IMG/VR virus record: IMGVR_UViG_3300031993_000041 | Coordinates: 24,876-88,875 of that record | Length of the DNA: 64,000 bases | DNA from: a virus | Lineage: Duplodnaviria; Caudoviricetes | Strand: one strand, 5' to 3' | Shown: positions 25,894-28,110 of the stretch, piece by piece | How positions within the stretch are numbered: position 1 is the first letter of the stretch | How the letters are laid out: the number at the start of each line of letters is the position of its first letter | Notes under the pieces: model-generated | The model's input: only the letters and a program-made list of their open reading frames with translations | Told to the model about the DNA's origin: nothing | The model's database searches: none | Made by a program: the position numbers and the translations under genes

Positions 25894-25994
25894 AAAAAAG
25901 TTTGTGAAGCCCTACCACATAGCCAATTTAATAATGAGAATCGAACTCATGTTTCCCCATAGTTCCAAAATCCATAGAGAAATATGGAAATTGT

Positions 25995-26306
25995 TTATAA
26001 TTTAATAATTATCGGGTGAACTACAACACCCTCTATCCCATTGTTGAAAACCTTTGGGAATGCTTTTCTCATGATGTTATAACTTCCGTTCACGTCGGCG
26101 TTTATCTTGTTCCCATTTTCTGAAACAAACAAGCCACGACGAACACGCTTGCCTTTATAAACATCATGCTTTTTAATTTCTTCCAAATCAAGGAAACTGC
26201 ACTTGGATGTGTAGCTTTCCTCGTTTGTAATTACTTTTATCCCCACTTTTTCGCATTTGTATGAAATCATATCAACAAATCTACTGTGGGGTCTAAAGCT
26301 CACAAA
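25995..26306 (-). pseudogene. tnpB: C-terminal fragment of IS200/IS605 TnpB
   Basis: PHSRFVDMISYKCE..GI...EESYTSKCSFLD...NADVNGSYNI; RuvC-I/II and N-terminus absent. Confidence 0.85.
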
Positions 26307-26570
26307 CTTATTCTTAAAATTAAAAATCCTATACAGCCCTCGACAGTATTCGCCCTGTTGTAGCCACCCTTTGGTCTCAATACTCTTAGTATCACGCGAG
26401 TAGGTCGAGCGTAAAAGACACATCCTCACAGATTATTATTTTCAACCCTTCATCCTCGAATGCTTTGAAGGAAAAACCTGCTCCACCTCGGATTTTTATA
26501 ACATTTATCTCGTTGTTGTTAGTTTATGGACAAACTTTTCCATTTCCCTACAACATACTAAAAATTCCTT

Positions 26571-26667
26571 ATGTCAAAGAACTTATTTATAGTATCCGCA
26601 AAAATAGCAGAGATTCTATACGTCTTAAAAAATGGACCTTTAATGTCCGTCTCGCGACAGGTGAACT
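26571..26667 (-). promoter_or_regulatory. boxB-like hairpin plus boxA (AAGTTCTTTGACAT)
   Basis: AGTTCACCTGTCGCGAGACGGA at 26646-26667; boxA-like at 26571-26584. Confidence 0.55.
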
Positions 26668-26719
26668 CGGTCCAAGATGTTCTTTGGAAACAAAACCACA
26701 AAGTACATAATTATGAAAT

Positions 26720-27293
26720 CGTACCACACTATGTTACCATAGCCAGCAAAACGCGATAAAAGAATTACACTTGTATCATCCGCTAAAAGCAGACTTAGGT
26801 CCAGCCTATCGTGATTTATATGTCTGTTGTGGTCTGGAGCACACCATCACCATATCGAAATTCTTGCAAGTGAACATAATAAAACTTATTGTATCGTAGT
26901 TTAATGTGGGTCACGCGACCACTCCAAGCTCATTTTACTATGTTAATTTCAACTTAGGCAATCTGCAAGGGCTCGCCTTACAGACGTTCTGCTATTCAAT
27001 ATATTCGCAGAATGTCTTCCGTCTGCTCTCTACACCTTTATGAGCTACTTGACAAGTCAAGCTGGTATCTGTCATATTCCGATTTCGAGTGCTTCTCATG
27101 ATATGCCTATTTTATACACACTCTTCTCCATTAGACTACTTGCTCAATTTAGCTCGGTGTTATCTGCGACTTATTTGTTTGTCTTTACAGCGATTTTTCA
27201 TCTTTACAGGGCTTAGCACCTTGACAGACTTCCACCGAATTTGGAAGATTCTACTCCGGCGTTTCCACCGGAGCACACAATAAATCTATTTCA
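26720..27293 (-). ncRNA. group I intron-like ribozyme without ORF (boundaries predicted)
   Basis: P3 TCTTCC/GGAAGA, P4 TTCGGTG/CACCGAG, P7 GAGAGCA/TGCTCC, P9.0 ACCACA/TGTGGT and terminal G. Confidence 0.75.
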
Positions 27294-27310
27294 ATGTACT
27301 CTTCATTTTG

Positions 27311-27449
27311 AGCGTACTTGAGGATTCGAACCTTCTGATACAAGTTAGTCGACGTCTCATGTATCATTGAATAGTTAAGCTGCCCACAACATATATCAGA
27401 AATTTCGAAGGTACTTCTGTAAATTTCATCAACCTATTCCAGCATACGC
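27311..27449 (-). ncRNA. putative tRNA-mimic-capped ncRNA
   Basis: GCGTAT/GTACGC stem, AGG-TTCGAAT-CCT, internal TTCTGATA/TATCAGAA helix. Confidence 0.5.
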
Positions 27450-27458
27450 ATAATATAG

Positions 27459-27586
27459 TGCCTACCCAGGGATTCGAACCACCGTTCCATTGCTTTTATG
27501 TACAATATTAAACAATAGAACCTTCAAAGCCTTCACGTAAATAAACTTAAGCGCGCCTCATTTTATTTGCGTGAGAAGGAGTAGAC
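27459..27586 (-). ncRNA. putative tRNA-mimic-capped ncRNA
   Basis: GTCTACT/GGTAGGC-A 7-bp stem, GG-TTCGAAT-CC T-loop. Confidence 0.5.
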
Positions 27587-27612
27587 ATAATTTCAATGTA
27601 CTCTTAATTTAG

Positions 27613-27774
27613 AAACATAATGAGGAGTCGAACCTCTACCTCCGTCTAATACATCTGGGAAGATTTGCAACTCTTCGCAGAATCCATAGACCTCAGTATC
27701 ACCCTACCCGTATCTTAGCACTGCCTTCCTCGAATACCGCGAATCTCTTCAGGCGAGCCACACTTACATACGTC
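27613..27774 (-). ncRNA. putative tRNA-mimic-capped ncRNA
   Basis: GAGG-TTCGACT-CCTC T-arm; GACGTA/TATGTT weak acceptor stem. Confidence 0.45.
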
Positions 27775-27830
27775 GTGAATTATGCCGTGGGATAAATCAT
27801 TACATCAGAGCCTTGCAAAACGTCTTATTG

Positions 27831-28007
27831 TCAAAACGTATGGAGTCGAACCATATTCTTCCATGTCCTTTCATATCGTGGTCCTTCTATATTGGATGAC
27901 GGTCCGTACTAAAAAGTTTTGCAATCACTTTGTTTCCAGAAGCCGGAAGAAATTCGCGAATCTTCATTTCACGATACGGGATGTTCTGCCAGTTAAACTA
28001 CAATTAT
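27831..28007 (-). ncRNA. tRNA-like gene with ~100-nt insertion in the anticodon arm
   Basis: TA-GTTT-AACTGGC-AGAAC D-arm, TATGG-TTCGACT-CCATA T-arm, insert closed by CGTATCGTG/CACGATATG. Confidence 0.55.
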
Positions 28008-28036
28008 CGTCAGACAACCCTGACATAATGATTATA

Positions 28037-28110
28037 TTTCAATGTACTTAAAATCTTTAATTATCTGTCTCACGACAAATGTACTTTATTTTTCGTATAT
28101 AAAAAACAAC
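28037..28110 (-). promoter_or_regulatory. RNA-island leader: promoter motif, boxB-like hairpin, boxA-like motif
   Basis: GTTGTTTTTTATATA (28096-28110), TGTCGTGAGACA hairpin, AAGTACATTGAAA. Confidence 0.6.

What the first reader, a model, noticed from the sequence alone, without database searches (positions are those of the whole stretch)
26720..27293. Group I ribozyme with no apparent host gene, whose 5' splice site falls inside a boxA-like motif
Seen: group I core pairings with compensatory changes. P3 is TCTTCC (27248-27243) with GGAAGA (27020-27015); P4 is TTCGGTG/CACCGAG. P7 is GAGAGCA/TGCTCC instead of the usual GAGACUA/UAGUCC, and P9.0 is ACCACA/TGTGGT with a terminal G at 26720. A P1 with a U-G pair can form between GTACAT (27299-27294) and GTGTGC (27278-27273). 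There is no homing endonuclease ORF, and the flanks are neither an ORF nor a tRNA. Ligated exons would form a hairpin, AGTACATA-TTTCATAAT-TATGTACT, whose loop contains TTCATAA, a Met-anticodon-loop-like sequence. Inference: a domesticated ribozyme processing the polycistronic ncRNA, an RNA switch that removes a boxA copy, or a relic of a tRNA-Met intron.
Basis: partly seen in the sequence, partly recalled or inferred. Interest (0 to 1): 0.8.

Follow-up and report, generated by a model that had tools for sequence, protein, structure and literature searches.

The report
Orphan tRNA-type group I ribozyme
This 574-base stretch of a rumen jumbo phage is a genuine group I self-splicing RNA from a family that normally interrupts phage tRNA genes, but this copy has no tRNA around it, only a hairpin that looks like an anticodon arm.

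Summary
At least 46 distinct homologous cores occur in IMG/VR jumbo-phage contigs. On 24 aligned copies, 93.9% of cells in P2-P9.2 pair, against 34-44% when partners are slid, and 22 pairs show compensatory changes, including the P3/P7 pseudoknot.

In most homologues the element splits a tRNA anticodon loop (Leu-UAA, Arg-UCU, Met-CAU, Ser-UGA). Removing it after a U and after the terminal G restores the tRNA, and the guide sequence covaries with the anticodon loop.

Rfam RF00028 finds none of these copies, but in this tool it also misses the proven T4 td intron, so that failure says little.

The window copy is an orphan with no tRNA, ORF or homing endonuclease. It carries the guide of the tRNA-Met(CAU) members, a perfect 6-bp P1 and the terminal G. 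Its helices are kept by compensatory change: 15 of 16 altered pairs still pair. Its flanks form an anticodon-arm-like hairpin.

The most likely reading (about 0.5) is a stranded but still splicing tRNA-type intron. The rivals are a stand-alone ribozyme gene and a relic. The "boxA" motif is not boxA. This scan has reported similar orphan ribozymes in other jumbo phages.

The parts
26720..27293 (-). Whole group I ribozyme (574 nt), from the first intron base after U27294 to the terminal G26720.
   Evidence: The boundaries match those of homologues whose removal restores tRNAs. Model R1, built on the 5' half, scores this copy at 108 bits, and it is the only copy in the 88.9-kb record.
27294..27299 (-). 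5' strand of P1 (GUACAU), the last six bases of the '5' exon'. U27294 is the splice-site U.
   Evidence: It pairs 6/6 with 27278-27273, with U27294-G27278 as the wobble. It forms in the minimum-energy fold of 27300-27249, z = -5.3.
27273..27278 (-). Internal guide sequence GUGUGC, within AUUGUGUGC.
   Evidence: The same 9-mer is found in the tRNA-Met(CAU) members L016 and L024. Across the family the guide covaries with the anticodon loop: GGA for UCU, GAGU for ACUU, GUG for CAU.
27253..27274 (-). P2 hairpin with a GAAA tetraloop.
   Evidence: Helix 1: 98.8% paired, 4 of 7 pairs changed on both sides. The window has two unique C-G replacements.
27243..27248 (-). P3 5' strand (UCUUCC), followed by J3/4 AAA.
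   Evidence: It pairs with 27020-27015. Helix 2 shows UCUCC/GGAGA, UCUUCC/GGAAGA, UCACCC/GGGUGA and GCACC/GGUGC variants.
27153..27239 (-). P4-P5 domain. P4 is 27239-27233 with 27159-27153. P5 is 27229-27224 with 27167-27162. A small hairpin lies at 27183-27168.
   Evidence: In P4, U-A and A-U swap in perfect correlation (13 versus 11 sequences). In P5 the window has two double changes. The fold has z = -2.2.
27041..27146 (-). P6 (27146-27142 with 27045-27041), enclosing an insert of about 95 nt.
   Evidence: Helix 5: 3 of 5 pairs changed on both sides. UGAGAAA/UUUCUCA, UAAGAA/UUCUUA and UGAAGG/CCUUCA variants are seen.
27015..27040 (-). J6/7, the P7 5' strand (GAGAGCA, with A27029 bulged), J7/3 and the P3 3' strand (GGAAGA).
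   Evidence: Block conserved across the family. An 18-mer that I recalled from the Azoarcus ribozyme matches 27036-27019 with 2 mismatches, with 0 matches expected by chance. The pattern comes from memory.
26958..27013 (-). Optional two-hairpin insert between P3' and P8.
   Evidence: It is present only in the window, L005, L024 and L030. The first hairpin's stem is compensated and its loop is conserved. The fold has z = -3.4.
26854..26953 (-). P8 (26953-26945 with 26862-26854), enclosing a variable apical region and the invariant ACUUGCAAG.
   Evidence: Helix 7: 9 pairs, 100% paired, with only wobble-compatible changes. This is no positive covariation.
26836..26853 (-). J8/7 and the P7 3' strand (UGCUCC, 26841-26836).
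   Evidence: Helix 6 is the pseudoknot partner of 27030-27024: 97.2% paired, with 3 pairs changed on both sides (GAGUA/UAUUC, GACUG/CAGUC, GAACA/UGUUC, GAGCA/UGCUC).
26720..26833 (-). P9 domain. P9.0 is 26833-26828 with 26728-26723. P9.2 is 26742-26729 with a GUAA loop. The terminal G is at 26720.
   Evidence: Helices 8 and 9 both show compensatory changes. A G ends the intron in every tRNA-type homologue.
27288..27300 (-). Third exact copy of the 13-mer AGTACATTGAAAT. The 5' splice site falls between its 7th and 8th bases.
   Evidence: Three exact copies lie at 28048-28036, 27602-27590 and 27300-27288, all on the minus strand. Diverged copies sit at the same place in L009, L018 and L003.
26691..26719 (-). 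3' flank. It starts with AUUUCAUAA, an anticodon-loop-like CAU. It then runs into UAUGUACUUUGUGGUUUUG, which pairs with the 5' flank 27310-27294.
   Evidence: The joined flanks fold into an irregular hairpin of about 17 bp with loop UUUCAUAAU, -13.7 kcal/mol. The start RUUUCAYAA is shared with L003 and L009.
26627..26685 (-). Structured hairpin followed by a run of six U, the probable terminator of the unit.
   Evidence: Read from the sequence and the fold. It was not tested further.

Best explanation
The element is a complete group I ribozyme. It belongs to a family, not caught by Rfam, that normally sits in the anticodon loops of tRNA genes of rumen jumbo phages. Its core resembles the bacterial tRNA-intron type such as Azoarcus, enlarged by inserts in P5, P6, P8 and P9.

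The window copy is stranded outside any tRNA. It lies between an oversized tRNA-like RNA and a terminator in the phage's non-coding RNA island. I think it most likely still splices itself out of the read-through precursor, in these steps:

1. The guide GUGUGC pairs with GUACAU.
2. External guanosine attacks after U27294.
3. P9.0 places G26720 in the P7 pocket.
4. The flanks, held together by their own roughly 17-bp pairing (the counterpart of a tRNA anticodon stem), are ligated into a hairpin with a UUUCAUAAU loop.

Shown: the fold, the family, its tRNA hosts, the absence of a host here, and maintenance of the helices. Inferred: catalysis, that the precursor includes GUACAU, and that the copy derives from a tRNA-Met(CAU)-type intron.
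For: - Fold: nine helices, including the P3/P7 pseudoknot, are supported on 24 copies. 93.9% of cells pair against 34-44% when slid, 22 pairs have double changes, and 0 of 500 shuffles reach the score.
- Family and hosts: there are 46 distinct cores in the fetched loci. 28 of them lie inside tRNA genes that ARAGORN calls with an intron.
- Restored tRNAs: in-silico excision after a U and after the terminal G restores tRNA-Arg(UCU), Leu(UAA), Met(CAU) and Ser(UGA). In each case the guide matches the exon.
- Splicing features of the window copy: a perfect 6-bp P1 with the U-G wobble, the guide AUUGUGUGC identical to the tRNA-Met members, a 6-bp P9.0 and the terminal G.
- Helix maintenance: 57 of 58 pairs are intact. 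16 pairs differ from the family majority, and 15 of these still pair, 8 through changes on both sides. This holds even though the window sits on the longest branch.
- Flanks: they pair like an anticodon stem. The review PMC3984707 cites Zaug et al. [quoted passage not shown]
- The failed Rfam test is neutralised by the td control.
Against: - No functional host RNA is evident, so it is unclear what would select for splicing.
- The 5' strand of P1 lies inside a repeated 13-mer that may be a promoter or a processing signal. If transcription starts downstream of that motif, the RNA has no 5' splice site.
- The related orphans L009 and L018 have two U-U mismatches in P1. L018 also lacks the terminal G.
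- The window deviates at 14 of 86 conserved unpaired columns.
- The flank-flank helix competes with P1 for GUACAU.
- RF00028 does not hit. My own model of the 5' half reaches the td intron only at E = 3.6.
Confidence: 0.5

Rival explanations
1. It is a stand-alone ribozyme gene, a domesticated intron. The 13-mer is a promoter or 5' processing signal, so the RNA starts near the guide sequence and ends at or soon after G26720, and there is nothing to splice. The fold is kept for another job. That job could be self-processing at its 3' end, circle formation, or acting in trans on an RNA that matches its guide, such as a CAU anticodon loop.
For: - A motif-plus-ribozyme unit recurs in the orphans of related phages. 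L009 has AAGAGUUCUUUGAAAUA, L018 has AGUUCUUUGAAA and L003 has a degenerate form, always at the same distance from the guide.
- In L003 and L009 a GGGUUUCACARACCC hairpin with a U-run begins at the terminal G, so those RNAs end there.
- In L009 and L018 P1 is mismatched and L018 has no terminal G, yet 55-56 of 58 helix pairs survive.
- The window, L003 and L009 share the 3' flank RUUUCAYAA. Its CAY is complementary to the GUG of the guide.
- The other two exact motif copies precede tRNA-like units.
Against: - The window copy keeps exactly the features splicing needs: a perfect P1, the terminal G, and exon-exon pairing.
- The motif matches no promoter consensus that I could test, and it occurs only in this phage and one relative.
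- In the core tree the window does not group with the L003/L009/L018 orphans, so the shared flanks may reflect recombination.
- No target or activity is known.
Confidence: 0.27
2. It is an inactive relic: a former tRNA intron whose tRNA decayed or was deleted, drifting without function.
For: - There is no host gene.
- It sits on the longest branch in the family.
- It deviates at 21 of 161 family-conserved columns, against 0-5 (9 in one copy, L019) in tRNA-hosted copies.
- Orphan and half-tRNA copies are common in the family: 13 of 46 have no tRNA call.
- A TnpB pseudogene lies nearby, which suggests a decaying neighbourhood.
Against: - Drift at that level should break many helices, yet only 1 of 58 pairs is broken.
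- 8 pairs carry compensatory double changes. Four of them are unique to this copy, in P2 and P5.
- Both J8/7 deviations move toward the state I recall for the Azoarcus ribozyme, not away from it (memory-based).
Confidence: 0.15
3. It is an IStron: a group I intron fused to an IS200/IS605 element, whose 3' splice site lies at the right end of the TnpB remnant near 25959.
For: A TnpB C-terminal fragment lies downstream on the same strand at 26432-25995 (PF07282, E = 6e-13). IStrons occur in phages (PMC4227781).
Against: - The terminal G and P9.0 sit at 26720, 430 nt before the conserved TnpB piece.
- About 50 family members have the same 3' end with no TnpB, and excision there restores their tRNAs.
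- The TnpB piece (26292-25959) moves independently. It is 90-94% identical in other contigs whose flanks are unrelated.
- The boundary signatures of both IStron groups are absent: a T-rich pentamer with TCAG, or a GG-ending target with CGG.
Confidence: 0.02
4. It is a ROOL/GOLLD-class ornate large RNA. This was another first reader's view of the same stretch.
For: The size (about 570 nt), the rumen phage origin and the position next to tRNAs all resemble ROOL (note e1-5847837).
Against: No Rfam family of any kind matches 26400-27300 at E <= 10. The fold is a group I core with splice-site logic, confirmed by the tRNA-hosted homologues.
Confidence: 0.01

Closest known systems
Bacterial tRNA anticodon-loop group I introns (IC3 type): Azoarcus tRNA-Ile(CAU), and cyanobacterial or plastid tRNA-Leu(UAA) and tRNA-fMet. 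Surveyed by Williams 2020 (bioRxiv 10.1101/2020.01.27.920355).
   Same: - Family members sit in the anticodon loop. The Leu(UAA) copies split CUU|AAAA, the classical site.
- U is at -1 in a wobble pair with the guide, and a terminal G ends the intron.
- There is no ORF.
- The helix order P1-P2-P3-P4-P5-P6-P7-P3'-P8-P7'-P9.0 is the same, with J3/4 AAA and a bulged A in P7.
- The J6/7-P7-P3' segment is nearly identical to the Azoarcus sequence as I recall it (16 of 18 bases).
   Different: - The hosts are phage tRNA genes. A 2014 review states that every phage intron known then lay in a protein gene (PMC3984707).
- Length is 458-754 nt, against about 200-250 nt, with large inserts.
- Rfam RF00028 does not detect the family.
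- The window copy has no tRNA at all.
- The subgroup was not tested with subgroup models.
T4 td intron (IA2), the classical phage group I intron.
   Same: - Both are phage-borne.
- The 13-mer CCGUGCUAAAUUG (P4'-P6) is shared with 10 family members at the homologous place.
- By eye, the GUA-AUCU..CUAAACGG block and the CAUAAAUG J6/7 are similar.
- RF00028 also misses td in this tool.
   Different: - td interrupts a protein gene and carries the I-TevI ORF.
- By my reading of the td sequence and recalled structure, td has P7.1 and P7.2 between P7 and P3'. Here P3' follows P7 after 3 nt.
- My model of the family's 5' half reaches td only at 8.5 bits, E = 3.6.
IStrons (Tourasse 2014, PMC4227781).
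   Same: A group I ribozyme with a TnpB gene downstream on the same strand, and a phage setting.
   Different: The intron ends 430 nt before the conserved TnpB piece. The two parts occur independently in related phages. The boundary motifs are absent.
Orphan group I ribozymes in other jumbo-phage tRNA islands, reported earlier in this scan (for example e1-5381540, e1-5712914, e1-5406301). These are AI notes, not publications.
   Same: A complete tRNA-type group I fold without a host gene, sitting in a tRNA island, with an anticodon-arm-like hairpin or a terminal helix.
   Different: They are in other genomes. I did not examine their sequences, so whether they belong to the same family is unknown. 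The notes describe several as lacking splice sites, whereas this copy keeps a perfect P1 and the terminal G.

Membership tests
Group I intron (ribozyme class) | Core helices P3-P8 in canonical order, with the P3/P7 pseudoknot. | tested here: met
   58 pairs, 93.9% paired against 34-44% when slid. Double changes occur in P2, P3, P4, P5, P6, P7, P9.0 and P9.2. P8 is invariant except for wobble-compatible changes.
Group I intron (ribozyme class) | P1: the 5' exon end pairs with an internal guide, with a U-G wobble at the splice site. | tested here: met
   In the window, GUACAU pairs with GUGUGC over 6 bp, with U27294-G27278 as the wobble. In the homologues the guide changes with the anticodon loop and -1 is always U.
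Group I intron (ribozyme class) | A terminal G at the 3' splice site, positioned by P9.0. | tested here: met
   G26720 lies 2 nt after P9.0'. A G is present in every tRNA-hosted copy, and L018 has an A instead.
Group I intron (ribozyme class) | Guanosine-binding G-C pair in P7 next to a bulged nucleotide. | tested here: met
   The G27028-C26837 pair follows the bulged A27029. That pair is G-C in 23 of 24 copies (columns 546/809). Its role as the G-binding site is inferred.
Group I intron (ribozyme class) | Precise excision restores a host gene. | tested here: not met
   This is met for the homologues, where tRNAs are restored. It is not met for the window copy: ARAGORN finds no tRNA even at lowered thresholds, and there is no ORF.
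Group I intron (ribozyme class) | Match to the curated covariance model Rfam RF00028. | tested here: not met
   No hit in the window at E <= 10, in 13 homologue loci at E <= 1, or in the whole record. The proven T4 td intron is also missed, so the test has low power here.
Group I intron (ribozyme class) | GTP-dependent self-splicing. | not testable with these tools
tRNA anticodon-loop group I introns (IC3 type) | Insertion within the 7-nt anticodon loop of a tRNA gene. | tested here: not met
   The family meets this: 28 of 46 cores lie inside intron-containing tRNA calls. The window copy does not.
tRNA anticodon-loop group I introns (IC3 type) | Sequence and structure match to IC3 models or reference introns. 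| tested here: inconclusive
   The only test was an 18-mer recalled from memory of the Azoarcus ribozyme, which matches at 27036-27019 with 2 mismatches and 0 expected. No reference sequence or subgroup model was available.
IA2 phage introns (T4 td type) | P7.1 and P7.2 hairpins between P7 and P3', and homology to td. | tested here: not met
   P3' follows P7 after 3 nt, and the optional hairpins lie after P3'. R1 against td gives 8.5 bits, E = 3.6. Only a shared 13-mer links them.
IStron | An IS200/IS605 or IS607 element embedded after P9.2, with the 3' splice site at the IS right end and group A or group B boundary motifs. | tested here: not met
   The terminal G is at 26720, while the TnpB piece is bounded at 26292-25959 and found elsewhere without the ribozyme. 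No boundary motif is present.
ROOL / GOLLD large ornate RNAs | Match to the Rfam models of these families. | tested here: not met
   No Rfam family matches 26400-27300 at E <= 10.

The most novel reading that the evidence does not exclude
The orphan may be a phage-encoded, free-standing group I ribozyme whose exposed guide (GUG...) is aimed at CAU anticodon loops. It would then act in trans on phage or host tRNA-Met or tRNA-Ile2, or on its own downstream UUUCAUAA mimic, by cleavage or reverse splicing. That would make it a natural counterpart of engineered trans-acting group I ribozymes. The related orphans, which keep the fold but have lost P1 or the terminal G, would be variants of the same RNA gene.
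Probability: 0.1. Interest if true: 0.9.

Novelty: new variant of a known kind. Interest (0 to 1): 0.6.

Why it matters
- The family shows that phage tRNA genes do carry group I introns. A 2014 review recorded none. This family has colonised at least four tRNA species at three positions in the anticodon loop, without any homing endonuclease. The likely route is a change of guide sequence.
- The family is invisible to the standard Rfam model, and therefore also to databases seeded from it.
- Orphan copies, including this one, keep their helices by compensatory change although they have no gene to repair. That is unexpected for a purely selfish intron. It makes a concrete question testable: do stranded group I ribozymes in jumbo-phage RNA islands still splice, or have they been put to another use?

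Tried and rejected
- **Rfam searches.** I ran Rfam on the window (gathering threshold and E <= 10), on 13 homologue loci and on the whole record. None gave a group I hit. I do not count this as evidence against, because the T4 td intron is also missed.
- **BLAST.** Searching the region against deposited phages gave no match.
- **IStron idea.** The TnpB fragment downstream prompted it. The fragment's independent boundaries ruled it out.
- **Exact-pattern scans.** The window-specific P7-P3' word found nothing in IMG/VR. The orphan-specific 3' word found only the two known contigs in the metagenome collection.
- **Link to IA2.** A covariance model of the 5' half hit td at the right place but not significantly, E = 3.6. 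Shared 9-mers between td and the family were no commoner than in shuffles, apart from one 13-mer.
- **Azoarcus reference.** I could not find the sequence in the paper library, so I used only a remembered 18-mer.
- **Decayed tRNA in the flanks.** ARAGORN finds nothing at its default threshold. With intron search at 80% it gives one low-scoring call (tRNA-Pro, a 708-nt intron on different boundaries). On the spliced flanks it finds nothing down to 80%. Resemblances to T-arm or variable-arm sequences were too weak to use.
- **Promoter scan.** The sigma-70 scan gave nothing at the 13-mer. I could not establish a Bacteroidota-type or T4-type reading of the motif.
- **Inverted repeats.** The gapless search does not list the flank pairing, because a 5-nt bulge interrupts it.

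Full report
**Setting.** The window is part of an 88.9-kb IMG/VR virus record that CheckV rates 32% complete. It carries a UvsX-like recombinase and a family-B DNA polymerase. Its relatives are contigs of 100-400 kb. The single hit in GTDB genomes is a 376-kb contig binned from water-deer omasum. It is therefore most likely a fragment of a rumen jumbo phage. The minus strand from 22.4 to 28.1 kb is a non-coding RNA island with 11 tRNAs and a tmRNA. It also holds several T-arm-bearing units that no program calls as tRNAs.

**The observation.**
- Folding the pieces separately gives a strong P1-P2 hairpin with a GAAA loop (z = -5.3).
- The P4-P5 domain folds with A-rich joints (z = -2.2).
- Two hairpins follow P3' (z = -3.4).
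- P9.2 has a GUAA loop.
- No ORF over 68 aa lies on the strand.

**Homologues.** Deposited phages gave no match. A TnpB fragment downstream led me to two related contigs, and one of them held a copy of the element that is 71% identical by mean column identity. Words conserved between the two copies then retrieved 34 and 63 IMG/VR loci. A covariance model of the 5' half (R1) confirmed 29 further copies. I count 46 distinct cores in the fetched DNA. In MAFFT alignments each copy is about 44-54% identical to the window copy. Sharply conserved blocks fall at P3/J3-4/P4, P5'-P4'-P6, J6/7-P7-P3', the P8 strands, J8/7-P7'-P9.0, and P9.2-P9.0'-terminal G.

**Covariation.** I counted nine helices (58 pairs, P7 written as a pseudoknot) on 24 copies.
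- 93.9% of cells pair, against 33.7-44.4% when partners are slid by 1-3 columns.
- 22 pairs have changes on both sides, against 1-7 when slid.
- The covariation score is 0.231, against 0.03-0.07 when slid, and no shuffle out of 500 reached it.
- P2, P3, P4, P5, P6, P7, P9.0 and P9.2 each have compensatory pairs.
- P8 is invariant apart from two wobble-compatible changes, so it is consistent with the fold but not proven by covariation.

**What the family is.** In most copies the flanks are the two halves of a tRNA.
- Joining the flanks after a U and after the terminal G gives ARAGORN-recognised tRNA-Arg(UCU), tRNA-Leu(UAA), tRNA-Met(CAU) and tRNA-Ser(UGA). ARAGORN's intron mode calls L016 directly as tRNA-Met with a 503-nt intron.
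- The split is at CUU|AAAA in Leu (the classical cyanobacterial site), CUUCU|AA in Arg and CUCAU|AA in Met. There are also variants one or two positions away.
- The guide upstream of P2 changes to match: GAGU, GGA and GUG respectively. The -1 U always faces a G.
- Taken together with the core fold, this is the signature of a group I intron.
- Host tRNA identity is scattered over the tree of cores (no support values). No copy carries an ORF. The family has therefore moved between tRNA genes without a homing endonuclease, presumably by retargeting its guide.

**Why Rfam is silent.** RF00028 finds nothing in the window, in 13 homologue loci or in the whole record. In the same tool it also fails on the T4 td intron, fetched as L098, at E <= 10.

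**Relation to known subgroups.**
- Ten members share the 13-mer CCGUGCUAAAUUG with td at the P4'-P6 junction. However, R1 reaches td only at E = 3.6, and the family lacks P7.1/P7.2 in the IA2 position.
- Notes from earlier agents of this scan named IC3 tRNA introns as the closest kind. That prompted me to compare the core with the Azoarcus ribozyme as I remember it.
- The remembered 18-mer GGUGUAGAGACUAGACGG hits 27036-27019 with two mismatches, both at compensated P7 positions, and none is expected by chance.
- The P3-AAA-UUCGG block and the UAUGGUGA..CCAG block also resemble that ribozyme.
- This rests on memory and was not checked against a reference. I treat IC3-like as probable and the subgroup as untested.

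**The window copy.** No tRNA spans it. It is the only copy in the record, whose ARAGORN-called tRNA genes show no intron. Its features are these:
- Its guide, AUUGUGUGC, is identical to that of the tRNA-Met members L016 and L024.
- It pairs perfectly with GUACAU upstream, better than the guide pairs in the tRNA-Met hosts themselves.
- The first bases after G26720 are AUUUCAUAA, an anticodon-loop-like sequence with CAU.
- The two flanks (27310-27294 and 26709-26691) pair into an irregular hairpin of about 17 bp once joined, much as tRNA exons form the anticodon stem.
- It sits on the longest branch of the family and deviates at 21 of 161 family-conserved columns. Even so, 57 of 58 pairs are intact. 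Of the 16 pairs that differ from the family majority, 15 still pair, 8 of them by changes on both sides.
- Neutral decay would not give this pattern, so the fold has been under selection along this lineage.

**What clouds the splicing reading.**
- The splice site lies inside an intact 13-mer, AGTACATTGAAAT, which occurs three times exactly. Two of the copies lie 18 nt after the CCUCA end of a T-arm-bearing unit, and the first heads the island.
- Outside this phage the motif is found only in its relative, the L003 contig. I see no resemblance to boxA.
- Diverged versions precede the ribozyme in L009, L018 and L003. Those three form an orphan clade. They have a mismatched P1. In L003 and L009 a terminator starts at the terminal G, and L018 has no terminal G. 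All three still keep 55-56 of 58 pairs.
- If the motif is a promoter, these would be ribozyme genes, not introns.
- The window shares the motif and the RUUUCAYAA 3' flank with that clade, but its core groups elsewhere. That suggests recombination.
- The 3' flank also holds a second UUGUGGU that could replace P9.0' (pair I4). I cannot explain this.

**Rejected readings.**
- IStron: the conserved TnpB piece is bounded at 26292-25959. It recurs at 90-94% identity in other contigs with unrelated flanks, lies 430 nt beyond the terminal G, and lacks the IStron boundary motifs.
- ROOL/GOLLD: no Rfam match, and the splice logic of the homologues contradicts it.

**Verdict.** The feature is real, and the identification as a group I ribozyme is right. 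It is a new variant of a known kind: an orphan member of an undescribed, Rfam-invisible family of phage tRNA introns.
- I give about 0.5 to continued self-splicing from the read-through precursor.
- I give about 0.27 to a stand-alone ribozyme RNA.
- I give about 0.15 to an inactive relic.

Earlier agents of this scan reported similar orphan ribozymes in at least six other jumbo-phage genomes. I did not examine those sequences.

Noticed in passing
window 25959-26292 (-), within the ORF 25995-26432: A 334-nt piece holds the last 98 codons of a TnpB (PF07282) plus 36 nt. It is 90-94% identical to pieces in two related phage contigs (L002, L003), with a 114-nt stub in L004, and the flanks are unrelated. 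It could be a mobile or retained omegaRNA-like right end. It lies just upstream of the tmRNA (25893-25547). The upstream part of the gene is frameshifted.
   Followed up: partly
window 28036-28048, 27590-27602, 27288-27300 (-): The exact 13-mer AGTACATTGAAAT occurs three times, only in the RNA island. Two copies lie 18 nt after a ...GGUUCGAnUCCUCA T-arm end. The motif is also present twice in the L003 contig. It may be a promoter or a processing signal. It is not boxA-like.
   Followed up: partly
window 27311-28025 (-): Four units carry a GGTTCGAATCC-type T-loop (27322, 27470, 27624, 27842), but neither ARAGORN nor Rfam calls them tRNAs. Other first readers described them as oversized tRNA-like RNAs.
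   Followed up: no
window 26695-26709 and 26819-26833: The 3' flank contains UUGUGGU, which could pair with the P9.0 5' strand (7 bp) in place of the intronic P9.0'. It is followed by UUUG, so an alternative 3' end at about 26691 is conceivable.
   Followed up: no
L018 1090-1851 (contig IMGVR_UViG_3300028591_000072): Two tandem orphan ribozyme copies flank an intact, intron-less tRNA-Arg(UCU). Both end in GGUAAA, with an A where the terminal G should be.
   Followed up: partly
L029, L030, L037: In these copies the intron is followed by an intact tRNA 3' half. Upstream, however, only the 7-nt acceptor strand (ACAUCCG) remains. The D arm and the anticodon 5' strand are missing.
   Followed up: no
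L012 550-609 (+): A twister-P1 ribozyme match of 52.9 bits (E = 4.7e-9, below the gathering score of 67.2) lies in a related phage's tRNA island.
   Followed up: no
L098 (T4-like phage td locus): Rfam RF00028, as run in this tool, gives no hit at E <= 10 on the classical td intron, which carries its I-TevI ORF. This is a useful caution for any group I screen that relies on this model.
   Followed up: yes
L015 and L032: These family members have a different 3' domain, with no CUAUGGUAACAUAG P9.2. They lie next to tmRNA-like pieces, so they may be introns in a tmRNA or tRNA-like gene.
   Followed up: no
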